Positions 12,733 through 59,885 of a DNA stretch of 64,000 bases are shown here, in pieces. The stretch covers positions 1 to 64,000 of the forward strand of contig CAWBZV010000005.1 of the NCBI GenBank assembly GCA_963793305.1, in the 5' to 3' direction. The position numbers and the translations under genes are program-made. Below the pieces are notes generated by a model. It ran no database searches. It was not told where the DNA came from and saw only the letters and a program-made list of their open reading frames with translations. The DNA is from an uncultured Gemmatimonadales bacterium. GTDB taxonomy: Bacteria > Gemmatimonadota > Gemmatimonadetes > Gemmatimonadales > Gemmatimonadaceae. Numbering within the stretch: position 1 is the first letter of the stretch; every line of letters begins with the position of its first letter.

Positions 12733-12740
12733 CGGGCGAG

Positions 12741-12790: not shown

Positions 12791-12821
12791 CAATCAGTTA
12801 TGCAGTGAACATAGCCGCCGG

Positions 12822-16496: not shown

Positions 16497-17366
16497 ATGC
16501 TAAACTCGAGTACACCCGCGATAAAGCACTTCTTTACGGTTGACGTGGAAGACTACTTCCAGGTCAGCGCGTTCGAGGGCGTGGTGTCTCGCGACCAATG
16601 GCCGCGCTTCCCCAGCCGCATCGAGGCGGCGGTCGACCGGCTGCTCGGTCTCTGCTCTCGCCACGGCATTCGCGGGACGTTCTTCTCGCTGGGCTGGATC
16701 GCCAAGCATCATCCGAACGTGATCCGTCGGATTGCGGCCGAAGGACATGAGATCGCGTCGCATGGGTGGTGGCACCAGAAGGTGACCACGCTGACCCCGC
16801 TGCAATTTCGCGAGGATGTCAGAAACGCCAAGCGCGATATCGAGGATTGCTGTGGCCAGGCGGTCATCGGCTATCGGGCTCCCAGCTTCTCGATCGTTCC
16901 CGGACGCGAATGGGCGTTCAATGTTCTGATTGAAGAAGGCTATGAGTACGACTCCAGCTTGTTTCCCGTCAACCGCAACGACTACGGGTATCCGACCGCG
17001 CCTCCGATCGCGCATTTTCTGGAGCGCGCCGCTGGCCGGCTCTGCGAATTTCCGTTGGCCACGACCGTGTGGAATGGCGTCCGCATTCCCGCCGCTGGCG
17101 GTGGCTACTTCCGCCATTTCCCTTATCACATCATTCGTCGGGCATTCCAGGAGCACACGGACGACGGGATTCCGGCCGTCTTCTATATCCATCCGTGGGA
17201 GATCGATCCGGAGCAGCCGCGCTTGCCGGTCTCTTTGCTCACCCGCGTCCGTCACTATCGCGGGCTTCGCAATACCGAGGAACGCCTCGAGCGATTGCTC
17301 GGCGAGTTCCGGTTCACGTCTCTCAGCGACGGGATGCGCCAGGCTCAGTTGCAAGAAAGCGCGTGA
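16497..17366 (+). CDS. Polysaccharide deacetylase (XrtA/PEP-CTERM-locus type, DUF3473)
   Basis: FTVDVEDYFQVSAF, GHEIASHG, GYRAPSFSI, GGGYFR, FYIHPWEIDPEQP. Confidence 0.9.
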   Translation: MLNSSTPAIKHFFTVDVEDYFQVSAFEGVVSRDQWPRFPSRIEAAVDRLLGLCSRHGIRGTFFSLGWIAKHHPNVIRRIAAEGHEIASHGWWHQKVTTLTPLQFREDVRNAKRDIEDCCGQAVIGYRAPSFSIVPGREWAFNVLIEEGYEYDSSLFPVNRNDYGYPTAPPIAHFLERAAGRLCEFPLATTVWNGVRIPAAGGGYFRHFPYHIIRRAFQEHTDDGIPAVFYIHPWEIDPEQPRLPVSLLTRVRHYRGLRNTEERLERLLGEFRFTSLSDGMRQAQLQESA

Positions 17367-18383
17367 TACGAGTCGAACGCTTCGCGGGGCAGCCAGACGA
17401 GTGGGATCAGTTCGTCCGGAGCGCTGCTGGTTGGACGCACTTCCATCTATACGGTTGGCGGAGCGTGATGGAGCGCGTCTTTCATCACGGGTGTCTCTAC
17501 CTCGCCGCCCGGGACGGTAACGCGCTGGTCGGCGTCCTTCCCCTCGTTCGAGTCAAGAGCGCGCTCTTCGGCCACTATCTGGTGTCGATGCCGTTCGTGA
17601 ACTACGGCGGGCCACTGGGTTCCGACGCTGCGGTGCTCGCCCTGACCGAAGCCGCCGAGAACCAGGCACGGCAAGACAAAGTCAAGCTGCTCGAATTGCG
17701 CAGCCGCCGGCAACTTCCGATAGGGCTTCCGGTCTCGACCAGAAAGATCACGGTTGTGCTCGATCTGCCGAGCGACCCTGATCGCTTGATGAAGCAGCTC
17801 GACGCGAAGGTCAGGAGCCAGGTGCGCCGCCCCATGAAAGACGGCGTGACCGTTCGTTTCGGTCGCGACCAGCTCGACCCATTCTTCTCGGTATTCGCGC
17901 ACCACATGCGCGACCTCGGCACGCCGACGCAGTCTCAGCGTTTGTTCGAGGTCATCGCCGAGACCTTCCCCGACGACGTTCTGGTTCGGCTGCGCGTACC
18001 TGGGCGAAGAGGCTATCGCTGGCGGCTGCGGGTTTCGCTGGGGAAACGAGTTCGAGATGACGTGGGCCTCGGCGCTCAACGCCCACAAAAAGCTCTCGGC
18101 GAACATGCTCCTGTACTGGTCGTTCATGGAGCGCGCGATGAACGTCGGCTGCACCGTCTTCAACTTCGGACGCTGCTCGCCCGACGGCGGCACGCACCGT
18201 TTCAAGAAGCAATGGGGCTCGCGCGACGAGCAGCTCTATTGGTATGACTGGTCTGCCGCGGCTGGTACCAAGACGCCATCGCCCGACGATGGCGTCTATG
18301 GGTGGGGTCCGCGTCTCTGGCAGCGTCTGCCCGTGCCGCTAGCGACTGCCCTCGGCCCGAACATCGTCAAGTACATCCCCTGA
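17363..18383 (+). CDS. FemAB-family / GNAT protein of XrtA-type EPS loci (frameshift near 17980)
   Basis: WDQFV...THFH..GW..V...GVLPL..VKS.LFG..LVSMPF.NYGG; after removing one base it continues DDVWFGCAY...NMLLYW...FNFGR...GT.RFKKQWG. Confidence 0.85.
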
Positions 18384-18398
18384 AGTAGATTTTTCGGG

Positions 18399-19553
18399 GT
18401 GTTCGGTCGCTGGCAGCCGCCCGTGCTCTCCCCAGTCGCTCCGGCGACTTTGTTGCGTGCCGTTCCCGCCATTCTGACGCGAAGCGGGAACGCCTTCGAC
18501 AGCCTCGATCGCGTCATCCGGACACGGTTCTCGGCGGAACACGTCGCGCTCACCGACAGCGGGACGTCCGCGCTCGTGCTCGCGTTCCGCTATGCGCTCC
18601 CTGCTCGTGGCACGGTCGCTCTCCCGGCCTATGCGTGCGTCGATCTACTCGCGGCCGCGGCGTTCGCGGGGCTGCGCGTGCGTCTCTACGATGTCGACCC
18701 GGCAACACTGAGCCCTGACCTCGACAGCGTTCGTGCCACACTCGGCCGTGGCGCCGACGGGATCGTCGTCGCGCACTTGTACGGTTTCCCAGCCGACGTC
18801 CCGGGCGTAGCATCGCTGGCCGCTGAGTACGGCACCGTCGTGATCGAGGACGCCGCGCAGCATGCCGCCGGCACCCTAGGCGGTAGGCCGCTCGGCGCAT
18901 TTGGTCCGTTCGTCGTGCTGAGTTTCGGCAGGGGCAAGGGGACAACGGGTGGAAGCGGCGGAGCGCTCTTGTCCCGCGATCCATTCCCGGAATGGCAGCC
19001 GCCCGCGGCAGCCGCAGGTTGGCGCGACTGGTTCGTCACCGCGGCGCAGCTGGCGATAGGACGGCCATCCCTCTACGCCATTCCCGCGAGCATGCCCGGC
19101 CTGCGCCTCGGCGAGACCATCTATAGAGAGGCGCATGAGCCCCGATCGATCTCCTACGCTGCCGCCGCTCTTGCCACCGATGCACTCATGGTTGCCGGCG
19201 CCGAGGCCGTGCGTCGCACGTGGTATGCTGAGAGGATCATCGAGTTGCTAAATGGCGCCCCAGGGCTCGACATCGTCCAACCAGTCAATGGCGGCACGAG
19301 CGGCTACCTCAGGCTTCCGGTGCTCGACAACGTAGGTAGGCATGCGGCGCCCAAGCTGGGCGTCGTGCGAAGCTACCCGCGTCCGCTCGGCGAAGAGTCG
19401 GCGGCTTCGGGTCTGCTCGCGTCAGGAGAACCGGCAACACCGGGTGCGCGGAGGGTCTGCTCGTCGCTGTTCACTCTCCCGACACACGCCAGAGTTGACG
19501 AGGCAGATCGCGAACAGCTCTCTCTCTGGGCTCGTGGCGACCGGTCACCCTGA
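18399..19553 (+). CDS. DegT/DnrJ/EryC1/StrS-family PLP aminotransferase-like protein
   Basis: SGTSAL, VVAHLYG, IEDAAQ, SFGRGK, LFTLPTH motifs. Confidence 0.8.
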   Translation: MFGRWQPPVLSPVAPATLLRAVPAILTRSGNAFDSLDRVIRTRFSAEHVALTDSGTSALVLAFRYALPARGTVALPAYACVDLLAAAAFAGLRVRLYDVDPATLSPDLDSVRATLGRGADGIVVAHLYGFPADVPGVASLAAEYGTVVIEDAAQHAAGTLGGRPLGAFGPFVVLSFGRGKGTTGGSGGALLSRDPFPEWQPPAAAAGWRDWFVTAAQLAIGRPSLYAIPASMPGLRLGETIYREAHEPRSISYAAAALATDALMVAGAEAVRRTWYAERIIELLNGAPGLDIVQPVNGGTSGYLRLPVLDNVGRHAAPKLGVVRSYPRPLGEESAASGLLASGEPATPGARRVCSSLFTLPTHARVDEADREQLSLWARGDRSP

Positions 19554-19702
19554 CCGCGCGATTTTCAGCGAGCTCGACCGTTAATCGGGCCATCGCCTGG
19601 CCAACTCGAGTTCCGGGTCAGGCTGACCGATACGAGACTGGCGTTGTTTCAGCTCGACGATTAACCTGCGGGACGTAAGCGCAAGTGCCCCCCTCGGGGC
19701 GT

Positions 19703-19800
19703 TGCGACAATGGCAAAGCCGTGGGAAACCCGGCGACGCAAAGCTCAGGAGGCTAAGGCGCTCTCTCCACGAGGCGCTATGCCAGTCCGGCCGCCGAACA
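19703..19800 (+). ncRNA. Cyclic di-GMP-I (GEMM) riboswitch #1
   Basis: GGCAAA-GCCGTGG-GAAA-CCCGGC-GACGCAAAGC...GGCTAA...TATGCC-AG...GCCG: P2 with GNRA tetraloop, GACGCAAAGC junction, CUAA/UAUG receptor; ends just before the GGAGG RBS. Confidence 0.9.
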
Positions 19801-19815
19801 GACGCTGGAGGGGGC

Positions 19816-22608
19816 ATGCGTTACCGGATTCCGGTAGTCGCGCTGGCCGCCGTCGCCTTTTTCGGTTACGGCTGTGTGCAGGGTAAAGTGCTCGACGACC
19901 CTGCCAATGCTAGAACTACTCAAGACACCAGCACGACGATCAGTCTGCTGACCATATCGCCCACGTCCATCAGTGGAACCGTGGGTCAGAGCAAGCAGCT
20001 GACTGCCACCGCGACCAATCAGAGCGGCCAGCCGATCACCGGCGCGACGTTCACTTGGGCCTCGTCCAATACGCAAGTCGCGAGCGTCGATACCTCAGGA
20101 AACGTCACGCTCGTCGGCGCGGGCAGCGCGAATATCAGCGCGTCCTCCGGCGGGCTCACGACTTCTGTACCAGCCACAGCGACCGCGGCCACGATCCACG
20201 TCGCGACCGTCAGTGTCAACCCATCGACCGTCACGCTCAACCCCGGAAACACGGTGCAGTTGACTGCCGTGGCGATGGATTCCCTCGGCAACGTGCTCGC
20301 CAATCAGACGGTGACGTGGTCGTCGTCCAACACGGGCGTCGCGACGGTGTCAGCCACCGGCTTGCTGTCGGCGGTAACGGTCGGCTCGGGCGTCATCTCG
20401 GCGACGGCTGGTGGGAAGAGTGGGTTCGCGAACGTCGCTGTCGTCGCCGCTTCTCCGGCGTCAGTCGCATCGGTGACGGTGTCGCCCGCAACTGCGAGCA
20501 TCACCGCCGGTAAGACGGTGCAGCTCACGGCCACGCTGAAAGATTCGGTCGGCAACATCCTCGGTGGTCGTGCCGTGACGTGGAGCTCCAGTAACCCGAC
20601 GGTCGCGACGGTTTCGTCGAACGGCGTGGTGACTGGTGTCGCCGCCGGCGCCGCGACGATCTCGGCCGCGAGCGGTGGCCAACAGGGCTCAAGCCAGATC
20701 ACCGTCACTGCGGTTGTCGTGGGCTCAGTCTCGGTGTCACCGGGGTGGGCCAACCTGAGTGCTCGCCAGACGCTTCAGCTGACAGCAACAGCGCTCGACG
20801 GGAGCGGTAACCCGATGGGCGGTGTGACGATCAGCTGGCTCTCGAACGCCCCGTCCCTCGCCTCCGTCTCGTCGTCCGGCCTCGTCACGGTCTTGAGCAC
20901 CACCGGTACCGGCAGCGTGCAAATCTACGCGAGCGCCGGCGGGCAGACGGGCCACTCGACCATCACCTTCATTGCGGCGCCGGTCGCGACGGTCACGCTG
21001 TCGCCGACGACCGTCACACTGAATTCCGGTCAGACCTCGCAGCTCACCGCGACGGCGAAAGACCAGTATGGCGACGTGATCACCACCGACGCTGCCACCT
21101 GGAGCAGCTCGAAAACCAGCGTCGCGACGGTCTCGTCGAGCGGTCTCGTGACGGCGGTTGGCTCAGGATCAGCGACGATCACGGTCACGATTGGCGGTGT
21201 GCAGGCGACCGCCAGCGTCACCGTCGCACAAGCGGCTGTCGCGTCGGTGACAGTTTCTCCGACTTCGCTGTCGCTCACCGCGGGACAGAGCTCTGGCCTC
21301 ACCGCGACCGCCAAGGATGGCAGCGGGAACGTGCTCACTGGTTACCCGGCGACGTGGACGAGCTCGAACACGAGCGCGGCCACGGTGTCGACCTCGGGGG
21401 TCGTGACTGGTGTCGCGGCCGGTACGGCGACCATCACGGTCACGATCGGGGGCAAGAGCGCAACTGCGTCCGTCACGGTCACGGCGTCCACGCAGACTGT
21501 CAGTACCGTCAGCGTGTCTCCGGCGACGTCGAGCATTCAGGTTGGCAATCAGGTGCAGTTGACCGCGACCGACAAAACGTCGAGCGGTGGAGTGGTCACG
21601 GGGCAGAGTGTCTCGTGGTCCTCATCGAATACCGCCGCCGCAACCGTGTCGTCGAGCGGTCTCATTACCGCGGTCGCGGGCGGCTCGGCGACGATCACCG
21701 CGACGAGCGATGGCGTACAAGGCACCTCGTCCGTGACGGTGACGGCTGCCGGCAGCGGGCCGTATCACGAGCCGGCCGGCATGACGATGCAGATCAACAC
21801 GGGCTCCATGACGACGGCGCCCGCGAACAATGGCACCGTCTCGCAGTGGACCGAAGGAACGGCGACGTTCACGAACTTCTCGCCGGTCTCGCCGATCGCG
21901 GTAGGCTCGCTGTTCGCTGATGCCGCGGCCAACATCACGGCGGTGCCGGGTGAGCCTGGGCTCCGGGTGAACTACCCGACGGACCTCGCTGGCGGCTATT
22001 CACCCGTCCGCTGGGGAACGCCGATTGCCGGCGTGGGCACGGGACATCTCTACATCCGGTTCAAGATCCGCCTCTCTCCGAACTGGACGTTGAGCCAAGC
22101 GCTCGGCATCAAGGTCATGGAACCACGGACGTCGAGCGGTGTCGAGAATCACGTGATCTCGCTCACGGCCGCCGATGGAGCGAAAACCGGATCCGACATG
22201 TGGGTGCAGTTCCTGCTCCAGGGTGGCAGCGGTGTCGATCTGCCGGGCGCACCGCAGGGATTCACCGCGCCGCGCGCGGACTACCTCTCGAGCCTGGCGA
22301 ACCTCGGCGGCTCGGCGTTGGGCTCGTGGCACACGGTCGAGGTGTACTGCATGCCCGAGTCACCGGCCGGAGCACGGAACGGTAATCTCACGTGGTGGGT
22401 CGATGGCACGATGGTGTGGACCTCGGTCGGCGTGACGCCGGGTACCGGCGGTCTGCCAAGCGCCGGCATCGCGTACTGGTCAGCCGGCGAGACACAAGGA
22501 TGGAACTACTTGCTGTTCGATCCGACATACGGTGGTGACTCGGACACCGACCATCCGCCGTATCTGATCTACTGGGATCTGGATCAGCTCTACGTGAGCA
22601 CGAAGTAA
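19816..22608 (+). CDS. Surface lipoprotein with 7 Big_2 (Ig-like) repeats and a C-terminal polysaccharide-lyase-like beta-sandwich domain
   Basis: Lipobox FGYG-C; seven repeats of V.VSP....L..G.T.QLTATA.D..G......TWSSS...VATVS..G.VT.V..G.ATI; C-terminal ~280 aa with LRV.YP, LYIRF, WHTVE...NG.LTWWVDG, FDPTYGG, DQLYVS. Confidence 0.85.
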   Translation: MRYRIPVVALAAVAFFGYGCVQGKVLDDPANARTTQDTSTTISLLTISPTSISGTVGQSKQLTATATNQSGQPITGATFTWASSNTQVASVDTSGNVTLVGAGSANISASSGGLTTSVPATATAATIHVATVSVNPSTVTLNPGNTVQLTAVAMDSLGNVLANQTVTWSSSNTGVATVSATGLLSAVTVGSGVISATAGGKSGFANVAVVAASPASVASVTVSPATASITAGKTVQLTATLKDSVGNILGGRAVTWSSSNPTVATVSSNGVVTGVAAGAATISAASGGQQGSSQITVTAVVVGSVSVSPGWANLSARQTLQLTATALDGSGNPMGGVTISWLSNAPSLASVSSSGLVTVLSTTGTGSVQIYASAGGQTGHSTITFIAAPVATVTLSPTTVTLNSGQTSQLTATAKDQYGDVITTDAATWSSSKTSVATVSSSGLVTAVGSGSATITVTIGGVQATASVTVAQAAVASVTVSPTSLSLTAGQSSGLTATAKDGSGNVLTGYPATWTSSNTSAATVSTSGVVTGVAAGTATITVTIGGKSATASVTVTASTQTVSTVSVSPATSSIQVGNQVQLTATDKTSSGGVVTGQSVSWSSSNTAAATVSSSGLITAVAGGSATITATSDGVQGTSSVTVTAAGSGPYHEPAGMTMQINTGSMTTAPANNGTVSQWTEGTATFTNFSPVSPIAVGSLFADAAANITAVPGEPGLRVNYPTDLAGGYSPVRWGTPIAGVGTGHLYIRFKIRLSPNWTLSQALGIKVMEPRTSSGVENHVISLTAADGAKTGSDMWVQFLLQGGSGVDLPGAPQGFTAPRADYLSSLANLGGSALGSWHTVEVYCMPESPAGARNGNLTWWVDGTMVWTSVGVTPGTGGLPSAGIAYWSAGETQGWNYLLFDPTYGGDSDTDHPPYLIYWDLDQLYVSTK
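19936..21750 (+). repeat. Seven tandem Big_2 domain-coding repeats (~255 bp unit)
   Basis: Repeated protein motif visible in the translation. Confidence 0.85.
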
Positions 22609-22628
22609 TAATCGATCGGCTGGTCACG

Positions 22629-22666
22629 ACCCGGGTCGCGCGCACGCGCGGCCCGGGTTTCTTTTC
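22629..22666 (+). terminator. Rho-independent terminator
   Basis: ACCCGGGTCGCGC-GCAC-GCGCGGCCCGGGT stem-loop followed by TTCTTTT. Confidence 0.85.
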
Positions 22667-22764
22667 AATAAAGATTCGCGTGACGGCCTTGCATCGTGAT
22701 GTCTCGTCGCTCATCGTACACGCACAATCGTAGTCGCGCAGGCTGAGGCCGTTGGCCTGAAGCC

Positions 22765-22865
22765 CGCGATAACGGCAAACCCGTCGAAAGGCGGGGACGC
22801 AAAGCTCTGGAGGCTACAGTGCTCGATCTCTGATCGAGCGCCACGCCAGTCCGGCTACCGAACGG
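22765..22865 (+). ncRNA. Cyclic di-GMP-I (GEMM) riboswitch #2
   Basis: GGCAAA-CCCGTC-GAAA-GGCGGG-GACGCAAAGC-TCTGGAGGCTAC...CACGCC-AG-TCCGGCT-ACCG; P3 closely resembles riboswitch #1. Confidence 0.9.
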
Positions 22866-22886
22866 ACAACTTCAGAGGTCACAGCC

Positions 22887-24212
22887 ATGCATCCCATGCA
22901 CGGCGGGGCGGTCGCGCGCATACGACCCCCGCATCCCCGTACTGGTGTTCCCGTGCTCGCCTTTGCCGCCGCTGTTCTGCTTTCGGCCTGTGGCGATTCT
23001 ACGACGGCGCCGAGCGCGACGACCGCCAAGCTGCGCGAAGCGAAAGCATTCGAGGTCAACGGCGTCACCTATCCTACCGTCTCGATCCAGGGGGCCAACG
23101 CGGCGTTGGCGGTCGGCGGTCACGAGACACTCAAAGCACAACTGGCGACACCCACGGCGACGTGGATGGGACAGTACATGACGTGGGCGTCATCGAATTC
23201 CGCCGTCGTGTCGGTGGCCACCCAGAGCTGGGGTGGGACCGGGGGCGACGTCGGCTACCTGACCGGAGTCGCCAATGGAACGGCGACGATCACCGCCACC
23301 ACGCAGAGCGGGACCACCGCCAGCTACGCGATCACGGTTGGGAATAACGCCGAGGTCAGCAGCGGCAACGGGCCATGGCACGAGCCGGCGGGAATGGCGG
23401 CGCAAATCAACACGGGCTCGATGACGACGGCGCCCGCGAACAATGGCAGCGCCACGCAGTGGAAAGAGGGGACCGCGACGTTCTCGAATTTCTCGCCGGT
23501 CTCGCCGATCGCGGTGGGCTCGCTGTTCGCCGATGCCGCGGCGAACATCACGGCGGTTCCGGGTGAGCCCGGGCTGCGGGTGCTATACCCGTCGACACTG
23601 GCCGGCGGCTACTCCCCGGTCCGCTTCGGGACCCCGATCGCGAACCCAGGCACGGGATATCTCTACATCCGTTGGAAGTTCCGCCTGTCGACGAACTGGA
23701 CACTGAGTCAGGCGCTCGGCATCAAGGTGATGGAGCCGCGCACCGGTGGCGAGAACGACGTGGTCAGCTTGACCGCGTCCGACGGGTCAAAGGACGGAGC
23801 GGACATGTGGCCGCAGTTCCTGCTGCAAGGCACGTCCTACGCCGACCTGCCCAGCGCGCCGCAAGGCTACACGGCGTCGCGGTCCACGTACCTCTCGACC
23901 ACCGCGAACGTTGGTGGTTCCGCGCGCGGATCGTGGCACACGATGGAGCTCTACATCCAACCAGAGACATCCGGCGGGCACAACGGACAGTTCACGTGGT
24001 GGGTCGATGGCACGATGGCGTGGACGTCGGTCGGTCACGCGGCGGGGAGCGGTGGCGTTCCATCGAGCGGGATCGCGTACTGGGCGGGCGCCGTGCCATT
24101 GGGATGGAACTACTTGATGTTCGATCCGACGTACGGTGGCGACGCGGCGACCGACCATCCGCCGGATACGATCTACTGGGACATCGACGAGCTCTATGTG
24201 AGTACGAAGTAG
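22887..24212 (+). CDS. Surface lipoprotein with one Big_2-like domain and the same lyase-like C-terminal domain (paralog of 19816..22608)
   Basis: Lipobox LLSA-C; TWASSNSAVVSV...G.ATITAT; C-terminal domain highly similar to the upstream gene; GAGGT RBS. Confidence 0.85.
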   Translation: MHPMHGGAVARIRPPHPRTGVPVLAFAAAVLLSACGDSTTAPSATTAKLREAKAFEVNGVTYPTVSIQGANAALAVGGHETLKAQLATPTATWMGQYMTWASSNSAVVSVATQSWGGTGGDVGYLTGVANGTATITATTQSGTTASYAITVGNNAEVSSGNGPWHEPAGMAAQINTGSMTTAPANNGSATQWKEGTATFSNFSPVSPIAVGSLFADAAANITAVPGEPGLRVLYPSTLAGGYSPVRFGTPIANPGTGYLYIRWKFRLSTNWTLSQALGIKVMEPRTGGENDVVSLTASDGSKDGADMWPQFLLQGTSYADLPSAPQGYTASRSTYLSTTANVGGSARGSWHTMELYIQPETSGGHNGQFTWWVDGTMAWTSVGHAAGSGGVPSSGIAYWAGAVPLGWNYLMFDPTYGGDAATDHPPDTIYWDIDELYVSTK

Positions 24213-24263
24213 CTCACGCCGCGACGTTGACATGAGAACCCGGGCGGGCTTAGCCTCCTGCCA

Positions 24264-24875
24264 ATGGAGCTCGCCCGGGCGATCAACATAGGTACACGCG
24301 CCCTGCGCGATCCACGCCGGGCCTGGTCGGCCGGGATCGCGTCACTGCGCGGCTGGTGGTACAAGATCAGTCTCCCGGCACGCGGCATCCGCTTCTCGGC
24401 GGGCAAGCAGTTTCGCGTCGCGGGTCGTCTGATCGTTCGCGGCCCCGGCGAAGTGCGATTCGGCGACCGCGTGCGCGTGAATATGACGGTCACGCCATGG
24501 ACGCACGCGCGAGACGCGCGAATCGAAGTCGGCGACGATACGTTCCTCAACGGTACGCGCTTCGGTTGCGCCGAGTCGATTCGCGTCGGCCGGCGCTGCA
24601 TCCTCGCCGATGCGTCCATTCTCGACACGAACTTTCACAGCACGCGCGCCGATCGACACGATCCGGCGGCGCCCGTCCGCGTCGCGCCGGTGGTGCTCGC
24701 CGACAATGTCTGGGTCGCGGCGTCCGCCGGGATCCTCCCCGGAACACACGTCGGCGAGAACTCGGTCGTGAGCTTCGGCGCCGTCGTGAGTGGCACCTTC
24801 CCCGCGGATGTGATCATCGCGGGGAATCCGGCCAGCATCCTCCGGCCCATTCCCTCGGTGACGGACGCTCAGTGA
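24264..24875 (+). CDS. Hexapeptide-repeat (LbH) O-acetyltransferase
   Basis: ILDTNFH...PVVLADNVWVAASAGILPG..VGENSVV.FGAVV...AGNPA. Confidence 0.9.
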   Translation: MELARAINIGTRALRDPRRAWSAGIASLRGWWYKISLPARGIRFSAGKQFRVAGRLIVRGPGEVRFGDRVRVNMTVTPWTHARDARIEVGDDTFLNGTRFGCAESIRVGRRCILADASILDTNFHSTRADRHDPAAPVRVAPVVLADNVWVAASAGILPGTHVGENSVVSFGAVVSGTFPADVIIAGNPASILRPIPSVTDAQ

Positions 24876-26077
24876 CCCCGCCGCGGGGGGAGCTGCTCGT
24901 CCTGTCTCACCGCGTGCCCTATCCACCACACAACGGGGCGGCGCTCCGCACGTACAACATGCTGCGCCTGCTCGCGCGTGACTTCAATATCACGGGCCTC
25001 TGCTTCGACCGACAGGATGCGGCAACCGCGCGCTTGGGACTCGAGGCCCGTCGCGACGGGCTGCGCCCGTTCGGTCGGTTCGAGGCCTACCCGATTCCGC
25101 AGGAGGCGTCGCGGGCGCGGTTCGCGTGGGACCACGCACGGAGCGTGCTCACGGGACGCCCGTATACGTGGTACGTTCACGACTCCGCCGCCTACCGCGT
25201 GCGCCTCGCCGAGCTACTCGGCTCTCAACGATGGGACGCGGTCCACGTCGATAGCATGGATCTCGTGCGCATGCTCCCGCTCGTGCACCATCTGCCCGTC
25301 ATCGTCACGCACCACAACGTCGAATCCGCGCTCCTCCGGCGCCGCGGTGGCGCCTACCTGCGCCTCCAAGCGAATGCGATCGAGCGCGCGGAGCGATACT
25401 GGCTGCCCCGCGTCACGCTCAACATTGCCGTCTCGCCGGACGACGCGCAGGCGTTTCGTGCGTTGGCGCCGGCGGCTCGCGTGGAGGTCGTGCCGAATGG
25501 CGTCGACACGCAGTACTTTGCGCCGAGCGAGGAGCCGCAATCCGGCTGCGTGTTCGTCGGCGGGACGAGCTGGCACCCGAATCGCGACGCACTCCACTGG
25601 TTCGCCCAGGAGATCGCGCCGCGGCTGCGCACGCGCGGCGTGCCGGCCGACGTCACGTGGGTGGGCCGGGCGACCGACGCCGAACGGCGCGAATTCTCGC
25701 GCGTCGAGGGGCTCACGCTGACCGGATACGTCGACGACATCCGGCCGTACGTGGCGCGCGCGGCCTGCTACATCGCGCCGCTCCGTGTCGGTGGAGGGAC
25801 GCGGCTCAAGCTGCTCGACGCGTGGGCGATGGGCAAAGCCATCGTGTCGACGACGATCGGCGCGGAGGGTCTGGGCGCACGGCACGGCGAGACGATGCTC
25901 CTCGCCGATACCGCCGATGCATTCGCCGACGCGATCGCCAGTGTGTTGCGTGATGAGGTCTTGCGTCGCCGGATCGGCGCGGCCGCGCGGCGCGAGGCCG
26001 AGGAGCGGTTCAGTTGGGATGTGATCGGCGAGACGGTGCGCCGACTTTATGTCGTGGCCGAGGGCAGCGCGGTCTGA
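24872..26077 (+). CDS. Glycosyltransferase family 4
   Basis: SHRVPYPPHNG, HNVES, VPNGVD, GGGTRLKLLDAWAMGKAIVST; GTG start coupled to the upstream TGA. Confidence 0.9.
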   Translation: MTPPRGELLVLSHRVPYPPHNGAALRTYNMLRLLARDFNITGLCFDRQDAATARLGLEARRDGLRPFGRFEAYPIPQEASRARFAWDHARSVLTGRPYTWYVHDSAAYRVRLAELLGSQRWDAVHVDSMDLVRMLPLVHHLPVIVTHHNVESALLRRRGGAYLRLQANAIERAERYWLPRVTLNIAVSPDDAQAFRALAPAARVEVVPNGVDTQYFAPSEEPQSGCVFVGGTSWHPNRDALHWFAQEIAPRLRTRGVPADVTWVGRATDAERREFSRVEGLTLTGYVDDIRPYVARAACYIAPLRVGGGTRLKLLDAWAMGKAIVSTTIGAEGLGARHGETMLLADTADAFADAIASVLRDEVLRRRIGAAARREAEERFSWDVIGETVRRLYVVAEGSAV

Positions 26078-28308: not shown

Positions 28309-29712
28309 ATGACGGAGCGTTTGTTTCGCGCATCCCGCGATCCGTTTCGAATCTTGCTGTTCCTGCTCACGGTCATGACGATCAGCCGCATCCACCAGCA
28401 GTTCAAGTGGCTGTCGGTGTTGCGTCCTGCGCTCGTGGCCACGGCGCTGGCCGTGCTCTACGCGTTCTTGAGACCCGCGGTGGTCGCCCACCGTCCGCTC
28501 CTCGCGACCTGGCCCGCGAAGGTGATCGTCGCGTTCCTCATCTGGGCGTGCATCGGCGCCCCATTCGGCATCTCGTTCGGGAATTCGGCGACGTTTCTCC
28601 TCAATGTGTATTTCAAGACCATCGTCTACGCATTCCTGCTGATCGCGGCGATCCGGTCGACCGAGGATCTGAAGACGCTCATGTGGGCCTACGTGATCGC
28701 CACGTTGTTGCTCGTGTATACCAGTTTGTTCGTGTTCAAGATGCAGCACTACGGATCGGGCGCCGGGTATGACCGGCTGGCGGCCGGGGATACCTACGAC
28801 TCCAACGACATCGGTCTCGTGCTCGTGCTCGGCATGGCGTTCACGCTGTTGGCGTTCACGACCTCGGGGATCGTCGGCAAGCTGTTCTGCGTTGGTGTGC
28901 TGTGCCTCGTCGGGGCCGGGATCGCCAAGACGGGTTCCCGCGGCGCGTTCGTCGGCATGCTCGCGATCGGAGTCGGGATGCTGCTCCTGATCGACCGGAT
29001 CCCGATCGCGCAGCGGGTCACGTTCATCATCGTCACCATCATCGGGCTGTCGTGGTTCGCTCCGCCCGGGTACTGGAAGCAGATGTCGACGCTCCAGGAC
29101 CCGCAGTCTGACTACAACTGGAGCTCGGTCAACGGTCGTCGCCAGGTCGCGATCCGCGGCATGGGCTATATGATGAGCTATCCGATCTTCGGTCTCGGCA
29201 TGCACAATTTCTCGAAGGCCGAGTGCTTCATTTCGGAAAAGGCCCTCAACCACGAGGTCGGGACGGGCATCCGCTGCACGCCGCCGCACAACGCCTATAT
29301 CGAGGCGGGCGCGGAGCTCGGGATTCCCGGCCTGGCGCTGTGGCTGTTCATCATTCCGGGTGGCGTCGTGCAGATGGTCATGCTGCGGCTCAAACTGCCG
29401 CGGTCGTGGGCTCGCGGCGATCCCGAGCAGCGATACCTGTATTGCGTCGTCGTCTACATGACCTGCGGCCTGCTCGGCTATGCGTTTGGGTCGTTCTTCC
29501 TGTCATTTGCCTGGACCGACGTCAGCTACTACTTGATGGCGATGATCGCGGGCACGTGGATTTGCGTGTTCGATCGACTCGCCCGCGATCGTGCGGGACT
29601 CGGGACCGGACCAACGTCGCAGACGCCGGCGATCGCCGCTGGCACCAGCGGGTGGCGTGCCGCGGCATCGGAAGCGGCGGTCGCTCGGCGGCTCGCGGCC
29701 GGCGGGCGCTGA
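28309..29712 (+). CDS. O-antigen ligase / Wzy-like polymerase
   Basis: Multi-TM protein with DSND, TGSRGAFVG, P.FGLG..NF and HNAYIE.GAELGIPGL motifs. Confidence 0.85.
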   Translation: MTERLFRASRDPFRILLFLLTVMTISRIHQQFKWLSVLRPALVATALAVLYAFLRPAVVAHRPLLATWPAKVIVAFLIWACIGAPFGISFGNSATFLLNVYFKTIVYAFLLIAAIRSTEDLKTLMWAYVIATLLLVYTSLFVFKMQHYGSGAGYDRLAAGDTYDSNDIGLVLVLGMAFTLLAFTTSGIVGKLFCVGVLCLVGAGIAKTGSRGAFVGMLAIGVGMLLLIDRIPIAQRVTFIIVTIIGLSWFAPPGYWKQMSTLQDPQSDYNWSSVNGRRQVAIRGMGYMMSYPIFGLGMHNFSKAECFISEKALNHEVGTGIRCTPPHNAYIEAGAELGIPGLALWLFIIPGGVVQMVMLRLKLPRSWARGDPEQRYLYCVVVYMTCGLLGYAFGSFFLSFAWTDVSYYLMAMIAGTWICVFDRLARDRAGLGTGPTSQTPAIAAGTSGWRAAASEAAVARRLAAGGR

Positions 29713-29727
29713 CGGCCCGCGCGGCGC

Positions 29728-30915
29728 TTGTCGACGATACTCATCACGGACGGAGAGCAGCGCTCGGCGCTCGCGGTCGTCCGGTCTCTGGGCCGGGCGG
29801 GGTACCGCGTCGTCGTCGCGGCGCGTGGCCGCCGGAGTCTGGCGGGTGCGTCTCGATGGGCCGCGGCGCACGTGACGACTCCCGATCCGTTGGCCGATCC
29901 AACTGCGTTCGTCGAGGCAGTCGGCAATGCCATCGCGGCGCATGAGGCGCGGGTTGTCATCCCCGTCACCGACGCGAGCGCGCTCGCGCTGCTCGCGTGC
30001 CGGCAGCGCCTCGTGCCGGCGATCATCCCCATGCCCGACGTGACGACGTTTCAGCGGATATCGGACAAGGGCGCGCTCCGCGAGCACGCCGAACGAGCCG
30101 GCCTCGCGTTTCCGCCGCAACACGAAGTGCGGGACGTCGCTGAGGCTCGCGCGCTGGCGGCGACCCTGCGCTATCCGATCGTCCTCAAGCCCTCTCGCTC
30201 CGTGGGCGAAGCCAACGGCGCGCGCGTCAAGATGTCGGTCCGTCACGCGTCGGGGCCGGCCGCGCTCGCGGCGCACCTCGACACGCTGCCGGCGCAGGCC
30301 TATCCGCTGCTCTTGCAGCAGCGCATCGTCGGTCCCGGCGTCGGCGTGTTCGTGCTGCGCTGGAACGGGGAGCGCGTCGCGACATTCATGCACCGGCGCC
30401 TGCGGGAGAAACCGCCGAGCGGCGGCGTGAGTGTCTACGCCGAGAGCGTCACGCCGGACGAGAGCCTCATCGCCCGCGCGACGGCGCTCGTCGACGCATT
30501 CGACTGGTGCGGCGTCGCCATGGTCGAGTGCAAAGTCGACCGCGCGACCGGCACGCCGTACCTCATGGAAGTGAACGGCCGGTTCTGGGGCTCGCTCCAG
30601 TTGGCGATCAATGCCGGCGTGGATTTCCCCGTGCTGCTCGTCCGCCTCGCGCTGGGCGAATCCGTGCGGGGTCCCGACCAGTATCGCGCCGGTCTCGGCG
30701 GGCGATGGTGGTGGGGCGAGGTCGATCATTTGCTGGCCCGACTGCGCCATTCCAATGCCGCGCTGGCGCTCCCGAGCGATGCGCCTGGACGCGCGAGCGC
30801 CGTCGTCGATTTCGTCGGATCGTGCCTGCGCTTTGCGCCGGATCAGGTGTTCCGCATAAGCGACCCCATGCCGTTCTTTCTGGAGAGCGTTCGATGGCTC
30901 GCGCGGTCGGCGTAA
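29728..30915 (+). CDS. ATP-grasp domain protein
   Basis: LAVVRSLG, YPIVLKP, LLQQRI.G, HRRLRE.PP.GG, GVAMVE.K, LMEVNGRFWGSL. Confidence 0.85.
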   Translation: MSTILITDGEQRSALAVVRSLGRAGYRVVVAARGRRSLAGASRWAAAHVTTPDPLADPTAFVEAVGNAIAAHEARVVIPVTDASALALLACRQRLVPAIIPMPDVTTFQRISDKGALREHAERAGLAFPPQHEVRDVAEARALAATLRYPIVLKPSRSVGEANGARVKMSVRHASGPAALAAHLDTLPAQAYPLLLQQRIVGPGVGVFVLRWNGERVATFMHRRLREKPPSGGVSVYAESVTPDESLIARATALVDAFDWCGVAMVECKVDRATGTPYLMEVNGRFWGSLQLAINAGVDFPVLLVRLALGESVRGPDQYRAGLGGRWWWGEVDHLLARLRHSNAALALPSDAPGRASAVVDFVGSCLRFAPDQVFRISDPMPFFLESVRWLARSA

Positions 30916-33711: not shown

Positions 33712-34815
33712 ATGATCATCGCCGAGATGCTGGAGTCCGACGGCCCCGGCGGGGCGGAGCTGGTCGAGTTGCGTCTCGCGAAGGCGCTCCGGGACCGCGG
33801 ACACACGATCGTGCCCGTCGGTCCATCCATGGGGTGCGGCTGGTTGGCCGGACAATTCCGGGAGGCGGGATTCGACCCGCAAACATTCACGCTGCGCCGG
33901 CCGCTCGACTGGCGGTGTCTCCAGGGCATGATCGAGCTGCTGCGTCGGTATCGCGTCGACGTCGTGCACAGTCACGAATTCACCATGGCGGTCTACGGCG
34001 CCGCCGCAGCGCGCTGGCTCGGCATCCCGCACGTCATCACGATGCACGGCAGCCAGTACGTGACATCGAAGTGGCGCCGCCAGGTGTTGCTGCGTTGGGC
34101 CTTCCGTTTCAGCACAGCAACGGTGGCGGTGTCGGAGGACACGAAGCGACACTTGCAGAAAGAACTGAGCCTGCCCGACACCATGTTGCGTGTCGTCCCG
34201 AACGGTGTCCCGGCGCGTCTGGGCAACCGGACCACGGTACGAACCGCGCTCGGCATCCCGGACGATCACGTCCTCCTCTTGGCGGTTGGCAGCTTGATCC
34301 CTCGCAAGGGGCACGCGGTGCTCATCGAGGCCCTGTCGACCCTCGGCGCCGGTCCCTGGCTGCTCGCGATTGCCGGCGGCGGAGTCGAGAAGGATCGCCT
34401 GGAAGCGCTCGCCGCCTCGAAAGGCCTGACGGCGCACGTGAAGATCCTCGGCCACCGGGAGGATGTGCCGGATCTCTTGGCGGCGACTGACGTCTTCGTC
34501 ATGCCGTCGCTCTGGGAAGGTCTGCCACTGGCGCTCCTCGAGGCGATGCTCGCCGGCAAGCCGGTCATTGCCTCGCGCACGTCCGGGATTCCGGAAGCCG
34601 TGACCGATGGCGTCGACGGCATTCTGACCACGCCCGGCGATGTGGCGGCGCTCGCCAACGCGCTCGGAGGTGTCCTGGCGGACCCCGCACGCCGCGTCAG
34701 TCTCGGCGCGGCGGCCCGCGCGCGCGCCGAGGCCAACTTCACGCTCGACGCGATGGCGGACGGCTATGAGGCTGTCTTTCGCGACGCGCTAGGCCGGGCG
34801 AACGGTCGGCCGTAG
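33712..34815 (+). CDS. Glycosyltransferase family 4
   Basis: GGAE, VGSLIPRKGH, EGLPLALLEAM.GKPVIAS. Confidence 0.92.
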   Translation: MIIAEMLESDGPGGAELVELRLAKALRDRGHTIVPVGPSMGCGWLAGQFREAGFDPQTFTLRRPLDWRCLQGMIELLRRYRVDVVHSHEFTMAVYGAAAARWLGIPHVITMHGSQYVTSKWRRQVLLRWAFRFSTATVAVSEDTKRHLQKELSLPDTMLRVVPNGVPARLGNRTTVRTALGIPDDHVLLLAVGSLIPRKGHAVLIEALSTLGAGPWLLAIAGGGVEKDRLEALAASKGLTAHVKILGHREDVPDLLAATDVFVMPSLWEGLPLALLEAMLAGKPVIASRTSGIPEAVTDGVDGILTTPGDVAALANALGGVLADPARRVSLGAAARARAEANFTLDAMADGYEAVFRDALGRANGRP

Positions 34816-36378
34816 CCGCGCCCGCACGGACGTTGAGATCGTCGCCGGCAACGCCAGCAGCGCGCGCTTGTCGCCCGCGTTCAGGATCGGCAGCCACCAC
34901 ACGAGCGCCAGGAAGACCGCGAACTCGGCCACGCGCGTCCCCAACGCCGCGACCAGCGAATGGGCGGGGACCAGCACGCTCACCACGACCGTCACGACCG
35001 AGAGCGCGGCGAGTCGCAGCACCGGCGCCCAGTGGTAGCGGATGGGCCAGAGGCGCTGGGAGAACGCGTAGGTGCACCCGTACCGGACGGCGTAGGCGAT
35101 AGCGGTGGCGATCGCCGCACCCCATCCCGCGTATCGAGGAATGAGGAGCGCATAGGCGATGAGCACGACGCCGGCCGATATCCAATTGGCGATCGCGATG
35201 TACTTCGTCTTCTCCGTGACGCCGATGCCGACATCCTGCGACGCCGTCCAGGCTTGGAAGACGATGGCAATGAGCAGGATCGGCACGAAGTTCGCGGCGC
35301 CATAGAATGGCGGCGTGGCCATGACGCGGAGGACGCCGTGCACGAAGAGCGACATGCCGACCGCCGCCGTCATCAGGATCACGTTCTGATACACGAACAC
35401 CCGCGCGTAGATGCTATCGCGATCCGCGCGCTTGGCGATCTCGAACTTCTTCGGCTCCCAGACGAGATCGAAGGGCGTCTGCGCGAGGTACGCCAGCAGG
35501 AACGCGAACGAGTACGCCATCGTATAGAGGCCGACGGACGTCAGGTTCGTCACCACGCGCAGGAACGGCCGATCGCCGTACGTGAGAATGAACGTCGCGA
35601 ATTGCGTGACGATGAGCGGAAACCCATAGCGATAGAGATCCTTGGCGACCTGCTTGTCGTACCCGAAGCCGACCTCGCGGAAGACCATTGCGGTCATGAT
35701 GCCGCCGATCACGACGTTGCAGATCAGCGTGCTCAGGAAGATCGCGGCCGGCCCCAGGTGAAAGTGCACGAGGAAGAGCACGTTCATCGCCACTTGGAGC
35801 GGGAGCCGGAACAGGTTCATCCGCACGAGGGTGGTGAATCGTCCGGTCAGCCTCAAGAACGCCGGTGGCACGAAGTACAGCGCGACCACGGCGAGATTCG
35901 CGCTCGCCAGACGAGCGAGCCCCGTGTACTTGATGTCGCCGATGACGTATCGGGCGAGTTGCGGCGCCAGCACGTAGGCGATGATCGCCGCGCAGGCGTA
36001 CCCCGCGTAGATCGTGAGCATCGCCGTCGAGACCACGCGGCGCCGCATGGTCTGGTCGTCGGTTTTGTAGTAGAACCGGAACACGCCGCCGAGGAGCCGC
36101 GAGCCGGCGATGATCTGCAGGATATCGAGGCTGTTTTCGATCAGCTCGATGACGCCATAATCCGCTGGCGTGAGATAGCGGACGTACAGCGGCAGCATGA
36201 AGAACGACACGCCCTTGCTGAGCAGCGTGAGCGCCGCGAACAGCACCGCATACCCGCCCAGCGCCTGCAAACGGAGGGGGGCCGGCTCCTCGGGCGCCAG
36301 AGGCGCTGGGAGCTCACCCGGCGGAAGCGTCGACTCGTCTGGGAGGAGCGGGTCTTCCGCGGCATACGGATTCGTCAC
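34789..36378 (-). CDS. wzx: Wzx-type polysaccharide flippase
   Basis: Multi-TM protein with F.MLPLY.RYLTPADYG, YGFPL, DR.FL, VGLY..AY; GTG start coupled to the upstream TGA. Confidence 0.85.
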   Translation of the reverse strand: MTNPYAAEDPLLPDESTLPPGELPAPLAPEEPAPLRLQALGGYAVLFAALTLLSKGVSFFMLPLYVRYLTPADYGVIELIENSLDILQIIAGSRLLGGVFRFYYKTDDQTMRRRVVSTAMLTIYAGYACAAIIAYVLAPQLARYVIGDIKYTGLARLASANLAVVALYFVPPAFLRLTGRFTTLVRMNLFRLPLQVAMNVLFLVHFHLGPAAIFLSTLICNVVIGGIMTAMVFREVGFGYDKQVAKDLYRYGFPLIVTQFATFILTYGDRPFLRVVTNLTSVGLYTMAYSFAFLLAYLAQTPFDLVWEPKKFEIAKRADRDSIYARVFVYQNVILMTAAVGMSLFVHGVLRVMATPPFYGAANFVPILLIAIVFQAWTASQDVGIGVTEKTKYIAIANWISAGVVLIAYALLIPRYAGWGAAIATAIAYAVRYGCTYAFSQRLWPIRYHWAPVLRLAALSVVTVVVSVLVPAHSLVAALGTRVAEFAVFLALVWWLPILNAGDKRALLALPATISTSVRARLRPTVRPA

Positions 36379-37340
36379 CGGCTGGGGGTCGCGTGGTTCC
36401 GCGACCACAGCGGCGCGAACGGCAGCAGCGGCAACGCAGCGAGGTGCTTGAGCGCGTTCAACTTCGATCCCGGCATCCGCATGGCTTCGAAATACGCATC
36501 CACTGCTGGCCTGGCCTCCCCGCGCCAGAAATGATGGTGCCCGAGTGAGAGCCACGCCCGTCCCAACCGACGCTTCACGGCCTCGCGCTGTCCGTCATCG
36601 TGGACCTCGCGCGCCACACGCGTCAGCGCGTCGATGTCGGGTCGCAGCTTCTCCTCCGGCCGGCGATAGCTGTTGGCATTGTGCCGTCGCACCTCGACGA
36701 GCGGCTCCTGAATGAAGGCCGCCCGCGCGACGGAATAAATCCGCAACATGTAACAGTAATCTTGGCTGAGCCGCATGTCTTCCGGAAACTCGATGTCACG
36801 AGCGGAGTCGGCCCGGATGAGCGCCGTCTGTATCCATGCGGGGAACTGCCGCGTCGCGACCAGACTGACCAGCGCGTCCGCCTGGATGACCCGAGCGTGG
36901 CCTTCCCGACTGTCCCGCAGCGGCAACGCATAGAGCTCGGGCACGATGTCGAACTGCGTATTGGGATGCCGGCCGTTCTCGTCGAACCGCACGAAGTTGG
37001 TGAACACGAACCCGACATCGGGCTCGCTGCACAGAACCTCGAGTTGTGCCTTGAGCTTGCCCGGGCACCAGCGGTCATCCGCATCGAGGTACGCGATGAA
37101 GCGGCCTCGAGCAATGCGCAGTCCATGGTTTCTCGCCGCACCGACGCCGACTTTCTGCAGATACTCGACCCTGAGCCGGGGGTCGCCGATCATCGCGAGC
37201 CGCTGCTGGGTGTCATCCGTCGACGCGTCGTCGACGACGATGACCTCGAGGTCATCGACACCTTGCGTGAGGATGCTCATCACCGCTTCGGTGATATACT
37301 CACCGAAGTTGTGACTGGCGATAATGACGCTAACGAGCAT
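36375..37340 (-). CDS. Glycosyltransferase family 2
   Basis: VSVII..HN, VVDDASTD, AARN.GL, YLDADD.W. Confidence 0.92.
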   Translation of the reverse strand: MLVSVIIASHNFGEYITEAVMSILTQGVDDLEVIVVDDASTDDTQQRLAMIGDPRLRVEYLQKVGVGAARNHGLRIARGRFIAYLDADDRWCPGKLKAQLEVLCSEPDVGFVFTNFVRFDENGRHPNTQFDIVPELYALPLRDSREGHARVIQADALVSLVATRQFPAWIQTALIRADSARDIEFPEDMRLSQDYCYMLRIYSVARAAFIQEPLVEVRRHNANSYRRPEEKLRPDIDALTRVAREVHDDGQREAVKRRLGRAWLSLGHHHFWRGEARPAVDAYFEAMRMPGSKLNALKHLAALPLLPFAPLWSRNHATPSR

Positions 37341-54780: not shown

Positions 54781-54788
54781 GGGAGTGT

Positions 54789-59879: not shown

Positions 59880-59885
59880 CCCCCG

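What the first reader, a model, noticed from the sequence alone, without database searches (positions are those of the whole stretch)
19560..24212. Two c-di-GMP-riboswitch-gated paralogous Ig-stalk lipoproteins with a lyase-like head inside an EPS locus
Seen: two transcription units separated by a strong terminator (22629-22666). Each has a GEMM-I aptamer followed by a lipoprotein gene. One protein has 7 Big_2 repeats and the other has 1, and both end in the same ~280-aa domain. Established: GEMM-I riboswitches sense c-di-GMP, and Big_2 arrays act as stalks in surface proteins. The C-terminal pattern (LRV.YP, LYIR, WHT.E...G...WWVDG, F.PTYGG, D.LYVS) resembles the beta-jelly-roll of PL14-type polysaccharide lyases. 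Inference: a long-stalk/short-stalk pair displaying one glycan-binding or glycan-cleaving head at two distances from the membrane, switched by c-di-GMP to tether or release the locus's own EPS. I know of no described system with this layout.
Basis: partly seen in the sequence, partly recalled or inferred. Interest (0 to 1): 0.85.

Follow-up and report, generated by a model that had tools for sequence, protein, structure and literature searches.

The report
Riboswitch-gated stalked glycan-head lipoprotein pair
A soil bacterium keeps, inside its slime-polysaccharide gene cluster, a long and a short membrane-anchored protein that carry the same unnamed, probably sugar-binding head, each behind its own c-di-GMP RNA switch, and related heads also occur among phage structural genes.

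Summary
There are two c-di-GMP-I riboswitches (62.7 and 67.8 bits), each before a lipoprotein gene (7 or 1 Big_2 domains, heads 76% identical), with a terminator between them, inside an XrtA-type Wzy polysaccharide cluster. Relatives are labelled Gemmatimonadaceae.

The head folds like PL36/PL14 lyases (Z 17.2 to Aly36B). It keeps only the catalytic Lys (188/196 homologs); the Arg and both Tyr are replaced, so it is a new family and not PL14 or PL36. Homologs occur in 89/401 phylum genomes. 14/17 sampled chromosomal loci lie in this kind of cluster, and 7/17 have a riboswitch directly upstream.

Heads group by genome while stalks group by long/short type (AU p 1e-5), and one A/B chimera was found. 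Heads also sit in phage structural-gene modules. In the close clade, the aptamer's ligand-contact strand can pair with the start codons, which predicts a translational ON switch.

Best reading: c-di-GMP-induced tethers for the cell's own polysaccharide (0.45); an active lyase is the main rival (0.27). Binding, cleavage, surface exposure and switch direction are untested.

The parts
19639..19653 (+). GG-N10-GC motif resembling a sigma-54 promoter (lead only; the -12 element is atypical)
   Evidence: present in 5 of 7 aligned upstream regions; the genome has rpoN; consensus recalled
19702..19798 (+). c-di-GMP-I riboswitch 1; G at 19712 and C at 19794 are the G20/C92 equivalents (c-di-GMP type); strand 19730-19740 can pair with the first codons of gene A
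   Evidence: meaning of G20/C92 from PMC6140456 passages; numbering register recalled
19807..19814 (+). Shine-Dalgarno of gene A; complementary to a 10-nt stretch in the distal aptamer hairpin
   Evidence: sequence
19816..22608 (+). gene A: 930-aa long-stalk lipoprotein (Cys20, 7 Big_2, head)
21757..22605 (+). head domain of A (P0001): beta-jelly roll; conserved Lys codon 22111-22113 (Aly36B K143 position) and Gln codon 22219-22221 (Aly36B Y187 position)
22628..22667 (+). intrinsic-terminator-like hairpin separating the two units
22689..22728 (+). conserved promoter-like elements of gene B (TTGCAT, 17 variable nt, CATCGT; then CACAAT)
   Evidence: conserved in 8 of 8 aligned B leaders; missed by the consensus scan; function inferred
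22764..22862 (+). c-di-GMP-I riboswitch 2 (G20/C92 type); the 5' strand of its second arm can pair with the SD region of gene B
22887..24212 (+). gene B: 441-aa short-stalk lipoprotein (Cys35, 1 Big_2, head)
23370..24209 (+). head domain of B, 76% identical to the head of A; conserved Lys codon 23724-23726
16497..19553 (+). upstream cluster genes: XrtA-system polysaccharide deacetylase, FemAB-like protein, DegT aminotransferase
   Evidence: TIGR03006 above cut-off, TIGR03019 below
24264..26077 (+). downstream hexapeptide acetyltransferase and GT4 (TIGR03087-like)
28354..30915 (+). Wzy-like polymerase/ligase and ATP-grasp protein of the cluster
34789..36408 (-). Wzx flippase
42903..46226 (-). 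NDP-sugar dehydrogenase and AsnB-type amidotransferase (suggest uronic acids and their amidation)
   Evidence: the chemistry is inference
53992..55550 (-). priming glycosyltransferase and Wza-like export protein
   Evidence: a Wzc homolog lies just beyond the window at C5:72639-74858

Best explanation
A and B are paralogous lipoproteins that present one strain-matched glycan-recognising head on a long (7 Ig) and a short (1 Ig) stalk. The head descends from PL36/PL14 lyases and most likely binds the cell's own acidic, decorated Wzy polysaccharide without efficient cleavage, tying it to the cell at two distances from the membrane. Each gene has its own promoter and its own riboswitch. Without c-di-GMP the ligand-contact strand and second arm of the aptamer pair with the start codons and ribosome site; bound c-di-GMP frees them, so the proteins are made in the sessile state. 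Occasional recombination between the tandem heads keeps them matched, and phages carry the same head on virion proteins, presumably to bind the same glycan. Shown by computation: riboswitches, architecture, fold, locus linkage, discordant head and stalk trees, phage contexts. Inferred: ON polarity, lipidation and surface exposure, ligand, absence of catalysis.
For: Fold: AF2 pLDDT 92; top hits Aly36B Z 17.2 (rmsd 3.1, 217 aligned), AkAly30 16.4, vAL-1 16.1; a profile reaches 6kcw at E 3e-9. Only the Lys is kept: K 188/196, R 1/196 at the R169 column, Y 2/196 and 0/196 at the Y185 and Y187 columns. The head is also appended to GH10 or alginate-lyase domains and occurs in tandem copies, as binding modules do. 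14 of 17 chromosomal loci lie in the same kind of polysaccharide cluster; 7 of 17 have a riboswitch directly upstream of a head gene. A and B heads are mutual best partners in 6 of 8 genomes (sister strains set aside), while the 95 stalk residues before the head split by type at 98/96 support; an A-head clade is rejected, p-AU 1e-5. L152's single gene switches from A-type (19/20 sites) to B-type (77/78) inside the head. Start-codon pairing: CGT at codon 2 in 13 of 15 genes against 22 of 151 Arg second codons in the genome, 0 of 1000 synonymous recodings pair as well, and opening the ribosome footprint is cheaper in the bound model in 15 of 15. Phage contexts: L044, L150, L151.
Against: No ligand or activity data exist. 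The Lys is the very residue that is both acid and base in Aly36B (PMC13709232), so catalysis is not excluded. Cip1 and TtX122 share the fold and no clear activity was shown for either (PMC10916295). 3 of 17 loci are not polysaccharide loci and 10 of 17 lack a riboswitch. L138 and L147 do not show clean within-genome pairing, and window A and B heads still group with their own orthologs in L136, so homogenisation is episodic. Head similarity did not visibly follow glycosyltransferase content (by eye). The 15 leaders are close kin of two types, the bound-state model forbids the pairing by construction, window B has CAT instead of CGT (difference only 1.7 kcal), and across 34 wider riboswitches SD pairing showed no covariation (p 0.15). 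The residue mapping rests on profile alignment, not on superposition.
Confidence: 0.45

Rival explanations
1. The head is an active lyase of a new family. The Lys acts as base and acid, and Gln/Asn replace the Arg because the substrate is an amidated or otherwise neutralised uronate. It trims, releases or clears the cell's own polysaccharide at the surface or in the periplasm, as RbmB does in Vibrio; the phage copies are depolymerases.
For: Lys 188/196 and Gln 177/196 are conserved, including in the 6 phage-type heads listed. The three best folds are lyases. The locus encodes an NDP-sugar dehydrogenase, an AsnB amidotransferase, FemAB-like and ATP-grasp proteins. RbmB is related to prophage tail proteins (PMC11451748 section 8). 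Seven Ig domains could span a periplasm (size recalled).
Against: Three of four PL36 centre residues are lost. The predicted ON polarity would make a releasing enzyme at high c-di-GMP. Fusion to other catalytic domains suggests a binding module.
Confidence: 0.27
2. The heads recognise each other or another protein. Matched heads give strain-specific cell-cell adhesion (kin recognition), or the proteins act as phage receptors or decoys, and head turnover reflects that conflict.
For: Heads diverge faster than stalks between genomes (W_A vs L147_A: stalk 89%, head 58%) yet match within genomes. Phage-type and host heads interleave in the tree.
Against: The cleft-type Lys/Gln/Asn are conserved, the nearest folds act on carbohydrates, and the link to polysaccharide clusters is tight.
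Confidence: 0.12
3. The head binds a foreign glycan (plant, fungal or other bacterial surfaces) as an adhesin, and sits in the cluster only because both serve the sessile state.
For: Other c-di-GMP riboswitch targets are adhesins, such as cap in B. thuringiensis (PMC6366702). Five further riboswitches in this genome control unlinked genes, mostly exported-looking. 3 of 17 loci lie outside clusters.
Against: Phage structural proteins carry the same head, which fits a host-surface ligand; within-genome matching has no obvious use for an external ligand.
Confidence: 0.1

Closest known systems
PL36 Aly36B / PL14 AkAly30 and vAL-1 lyases (Pfam PF21294)
   Same: beta-jelly roll (Z 16-17); catalytic Lys position kept
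   Different: 10-15% identity; Arg169, Tyr185 and Tyr187 positions hold Ser, Leu and Gln; no Pfam hit for the window head; carried on Big_2 lipoprotein stalks
Vibrio rbm cluster (RbmB lyase, RbmA/RbmC/Bap1 matrix proteins)
   Same: polysaccharide-acting proteins encoded with the polysaccharide genes; RbmB shares ancestry with prophage tail proteins (PMC11451748 abstract and section 8)
   Different: RbmB is a secreted beta-helix; here a jelly-roll head sits on lipid-anchored stalks of two lengths, each gene with a c-di-GMP riboswitch
Leptospira LigA/LigB
   Same: tandem paralogous Big_2 surface lipoproteins, gene conversion between them, control by a structured 5' leader (PMC7821625 passages)
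   Different: Lig shares leader and N-terminal stalk and differs distally; here leaders and stalks differ and the distal head is shared; the leader senses c-di-GMP, not temperature
c-di-GMP riboswitch-controlled surface factors (Bc2-cap in B. thuringiensis; C. difficile pili and flagella)
   Same: class I aptamer before a surface-protein gene; Bc2 is an ON switch (PMC6366702 part 1 of 3)
   Different: those act through terminators in Gram-positives; here no terminator follows the aptamer and control is predicted at the start codon
XrtA/PEP-CTERM (zooglan-type) exopolysaccharide clusters
   Same: deacetylase TIGR03006 above cut-off; FemAB, stp1/stp2, O-ligase and amidotransferase models hit below cut-off
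   Different: no exosortase or PEP-CTERM found in this 92%-complete genome; stalked lipoproteins are present in the cluster
Cip1 and TtX122 domains
   Same: same fold neighbourhood (Cip1 Z 15.9, TtX122A Z 13.2)
   Different: different conserved cleft residues; both lack demonstrated activity (PMC10916295 passages), a caution for any lyase call

Membership tests
c-di-GMP-I riboswitch (RF01051) | covariance-model score above gathering | tested here: met
   62.7 and 67.8 bits against 35
c-di-GMP-I riboswitch (RF01051) | G20 and C92 ligand contacts (A20 marks cGAMP sensing) | tested here: met
   G and C in 15 of 15 close-clade leaders including both window copies; meaning from PMC6140456; numbering register recalled
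c-di-GMP-I riboswitch (RF01051) | ligand-dependent change in structure and expression | not testable with these tools
   folding models only
PL36 (Aly36B) | beta-jelly roll fold | tested here: met
PL36 (Aly36B) | catalytic Lys143 | tested here: met
   K119, 188 of 196; placed by the K-to-A mutant chains and the matching W-to-K spacing of the sister subfamily; HMMER's own column is about 3 positions off; no superposition
PL36 (Aly36B) | conserved Arg169, Tyr185, Tyr187 | tested here: not met
   features from PMC8286568; R 0/196 and 1/196 in the two possible columns, Y 2/196 and 0/196
PL14 / PF21294 | Pfam score above cut-off | tested here: not met
   no hit for the window heads; sub-cut-off hits in homologs; some distant phylum members and the sister subfamily pass
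PL14 / PF21294 | Tyr-x-Tyr strand | tested here: not met
   kept in the sister subfamily A2, replaced by Leu-x-Gln here; its role in PL14 is recalled
polysaccharide lyases | beta-elimination activity | not testable with these tools
   needs an assay
bacterial lipoproteins | signal peptide with lipobox Cys | tested here: inconclusive
   B is canonical (LSAC); A is atypical (GYGC) but the Cys is kept in orthologs; judged by eye, no predictor run
XrtA/PEP-CTERM exopolysaccharide system | exosortase and PEP-CTERM genes in the genome | tested here: inconclusive
   none found in G000, 92% complete (the PEP-CTERM control rang nowhere); exosortase in 36 of 88 other head-carrying genomes

The most novel reading that the evidence does not exclude
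A new family of lyase-derived glycan-recognition heads is shared between Gemmatimonadota and their phages. The host displays it on Ig stalks of graded length, keeps the copies matched by recombination so that they follow its own strain-specific polysaccharide, and switches each copy with a riboswitch that hides the start codon in its ligand-binding strand; some relatives appear to use the cGAMP-type switch instead. If catalytic, it is a Lys/Gln lyase for amidated uronates.
Probability: 0.3. Interest if true: 0.82.

Novelty: new variant of a known kind. Interest (0 to 1): 0.62.

Why it matters
Gemmatimonadota are common in soil and poorly studied (recalled), and my searches found no paper on their riboswitches or this protein family. 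The finding names a widespread, unannotated head family (at least 132 clusters at 50% identity) with a changed lyase cleft, places it in the phylum's polysaccharide cluster, and links host surface display to phage structural proteins. The riboswitch and head predictions can be tested in E. coli with standard reporters and purified 30-kDa domains. Each ingredient has a precedent (RbmB, LigA/B, Bc2-cap); the combination, and sharing the head rather than the stalk, did not appear in the papers I saw.

Tried and rejected
(1) 'The heads replace PEP-CTERM proteins' was rejected: exosortase occurs in 36 of 88 head-carrying genomes against 111 of 401 overall.
(2) A universal anti-SD in the distal aptamer hairpin was rejected across 19 riboswitches; it holds in 5 of 7 A-type leaders of the close clade (by eye).
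(3) Covariation between the second-arm 5' strand and the SD region across 34 riboswitches was not significant (p 0.15; 2 leaders dropped for pattern failure, and those without a nearby SD-led ORF were not entered).
(4) Single-sequence and A1-profile PDB searches gave only unrelated hits; the broader profiles A2 and A3 were needed.
(5) No head was found in viral contigs (pattern-based, close relatives only) or in INPHARED phages, and PHROGs has no family for it; the phage claim rests on three loci and on domain fusions.
(6) Head homodimer prediction gave no answer.
(7) The sigma-70 consensus scan found no promoter.
(9) Earlier scan findings: none.
(10) Literature: 'Gemmatimonad + c-di-GMP + riboswitch' gave 2 papers, not on this topic by title and abstract start; 'c-di-GMP riboswitch + surface protein + polysaccharide lyase + biofilm' gave 0; one search listed nothing on this system among 20 of 38 shown; the epsSMASH preprint has no mention of Gemmatimonad or lyase. 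The library is open-access only, no supplements were read, and start-codon pairing in c-di-GMP riboswitches was not searched.
(11) No formal random control was run for proximity to polysaccharide genes.

Full report
OBSERVATION. All elements are present. Rfam finds c-di-GMP-I aptamers at 19702-19798 and 22764-22862 (62.7 and 67.8 bits). Gene A (19816-22608, 930 aa) has 7 Big_2 stretches and gene B (22887-24212, 441 aa) has 1. Their ~280-aa C-terminal heads are 76% identical and unique in the genome. A 14-bp hairpin with a T-run (22628-22667) separates them. Both start with a signal peptide and Cys. Relatives at 52-95% identity are labelled Gemmatimonadaceae. The surrounding genes form a Wzy-type cluster related to XrtA/PEP-CTERM systems: deacetylase (TIGR03006 above cut-off), FemAB-like, DegT, glycosyltransferases, Wzy-like, Wzx, NDP-sugar dehydrogenase, AsnB amidotransferase, priming transferase and Wza-like protein, with a Wzc homolog just past the window.

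THE HEAD. It has no Pfam, NCBIfam or PHROGs match but 132 relatives among 50%-identity representatives. The AlphaFold model (pLDDT 92) matches PL36 Aly36B best (Foldseek E 2e-9; Z 17.2, rmsd 3.1 over 217 residues), then PL14 AkAly30 (16.4), vAL-1 (16.1), Cip1 (15.9) and PL20 (14.5), above GH16 at about 13. A sister subfamily from the same phylum bridges it to Aly36B by sequence (hhalign 98.6%; PDB E 3e-5 and 3e-9). The mutant chains locate K143, M171 and Y185, which allows a mapping: K143 to K119, R169 to S135, Y185 to L153, Y187 to Q155. PL36 conserves K143, R169, Y185 and Y187 (PMC8286568 passages), and K143 is both acid and base (PMC13709232 passages). Among 196 non-redundant heads (of 229 collected), K119 is kept in 188 and Q155 in 177, while Arg and Tyr are nearly absent from the matching columns. 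The head is therefore a distinct family, not PL36 or PL14. The mapping is by profile, not by superposition. Cip1 and TtX122 show that this fold need not have detectable activity (PMC10916295 passages).

DISTRIBUTION. 89 of 401 phylum genomes have a match, and 45 of the 88 others have two or more. I fetched 18 high-scoring loci on long contigs from 17 of those 88 genomes. Pfam was run on 229 of 232 non-head ORFs of at least 150 aa from the 17 chromosomal loci. 14 of the 17 lie in the same kind of cluster; G215, G045 and G386 do not. A riboswitch lies directly before a head gene in 7 of 17. The exact long-plus-short layout after DegT, each gene with its own switch, recurs in a close clade: complete in L136, L137, L146 and L147; cut by contig ends in L143 and L145; with the long gene interrupted and an acetyltransferase between in L138; a single gene in L152. 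RF01051 is common in the phylum (97 of 151 genomes, a tally that includes two unpublished genomes).

MATCHED HEADS. The 95 residues before the head split cleanly into long-type and short-type clades (98/96), but the heads group largely by genome. They are mutual best partners in 6 of 8 genomes with both types, sister strains set aside; L138 and L147 are exceptions. An AU test rejects a clade of long-type heads (p 1e-5; G084_B left out; run after the tree was seen). Within genomes the stalk ends are 35-41% identical and the heads 71-88%; between the window and L147 the long stalk is 89% identical and the head 58%. L152's single gene is A-like at 19 of the first 20 diagnostic sites and B-like at 77 of the next 78, consistent with a crossover inside the head, although an assembly collapse is not excluded. 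Window A and B still pair with their own orthologs in L136, so exchange is episodic. Gene conversion between tandem Big_2 lipoproteins is known from LigA/LigB, where the leader and proximal stalk are shared instead (PMC7821625 passages).

PHAGE COPIES. The head ends a 1401-aa protein directly before terminase and portal genes in L044. It is fused to a head-completion domain among neck, virion and tail genes in L151, and lies near a head-morphogenesis gene in L150. Phage-type and host heads interleave, and the window's clade groups with phage-type heads at 99 in a quick tree of 76 rows (for most rows 'phage-type' is judged from fusions or N-termini only). The direction of transfer was not tested. 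RbmB and prophage tail proteins are a precedent (PMC11451748 abstract and section 8). Scans of viral collections found nothing.

THE SWITCH. Both aptamers have the G20/C92 pattern of c-di-GMP rather than the A20 of cGAMP (PMC6140456 passages; numbering recalled). The genome has 10 GGDEF matches, and the 7 with a full motif are canonical. No terminator follows either aptamer, and the start codons lie 17 and 24 nt downstream. In the close clade the strand bearing the ligand contacts (GACGCA) is complementary to codons 1-4. Codon 2 is CGT in 13 of 15 genes against 22 of 151 Arg second codons in the genome. Own-type pairing is about -16 against -12 to -13 kcal cross-type, 0 of 1000 synonymous recodings match it, and opening the ribosome footprint is cheaper in the bound model in 15 of 15. 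These leaders are close kin, the bound model excludes the pairing by construction, window B carries CAT, and wider tests of SD pairing failed. I put ON at about 0.7. Polarity cannot be read from class alone (PMC6366702, part 1 of 3). Gene B has its own conserved promoter-like elements (8 of 8), and gene A a possible sigma-54-like motif (5 of 7).

MECHANISM AND VERDICT. The most likely reading is a pair of c-di-GMP-induced tethers that hold the cell's own polysaccharide through a lyase-derived head at two heights (0.45). Reasons: predicted ON polarity, loss of three of four centre residues, use of the head as an appended or repeated module, cluster linkage, within-genome matching and phage carriage. 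An active Lys/Gln lyase for amidated uronates is a serious rival (0.27), then protein-protein recognition (0.12) and a foreign-glycan adhesin (0.10). Whether the proteins face outward or into the periplasm is unknown. The searches named under Tried and rejected found no description of this system in the open-access library; supplements were not read. It is a new variant of known kinds with a new head family. Interest 0.62.

Noticed in passing
L055:314-403, 1595-1683, 3978-4067 (G046); L054:6756-6843 (G001); L119, L122: These riboswitches have A at the position-20 equivalent (cGAMP type) and, in G046, a terminator-like hairpin with a T-run. Each genome has one GGDEF with Ser where canonical enzymes have Asp, the Hypr signature (PMC6456294 passages; column assignment recalled). 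Possible cGAMP signalling in Gemmatimonadota.
   Followed up: partly
L055:6985-7417 (G046): Three c-di-GMP-I aptamers in tandem before one head gene; G046 also has two further pairs of near-identical heads on proteins of different length.
   Followed up: partly
G000 C3:81900, C10:13779, C10:201324, C5:662234, C12:198556: Five more riboswitches precede a receiver-domain protein, a di-haem DHOR protein, two related lipoprotein-like genes and a Pro/Ala-rich protein. A GH30-like look of the related pair is recalled only; Pfam found nothing for the one scanned.
   Followed up: partly
window 12724-12798 (-) and 59821-59896 (+): Two SAM-alpha riboswitch hits (40.2 and 43.2 bits). The first overlaps the 5' end of the called metH ORF, and matches recur at the same place in relatives.
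   Followed up: no
window 56494-56985 (+): Short, apparently degenerate GGDEF-domain gene at the edge of the cluster.
   Followed up: no
L040:14853-16755 (G278); L138:7798-10849: Head genes interrupted by frameshifts behind intact riboswitches; pseudogenes or sequencing errors.
   Followed up: no
L098:1234-2034 and the A2 set: A sister head subfamily keeps the PL14-type Tyr-x-Tyr strand; some members have His in place of the Lys. At least 705 relatives, mostly annotated PF21294 among those listed.
   Followed up: partly
P0008, P0010, P0058: Heads on lipoprotein-like proteins with DAG-repeat linkers, which resemble myxobacterial proteins (recalled), suggesting a range beyond this phylum.
   Followed up: no
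L053:10002-10856 (G045), L059:9346-10176 (G386): Stand-alone heads between a galactokinase gene and a tRNA, outside any polysaccharide cluster.
   Followed up: no
window 24229-24279: Strong hairpin without a T-run after gene B, so B may read through into the acetyltransferase and GT4 genes.
   Followed up: no
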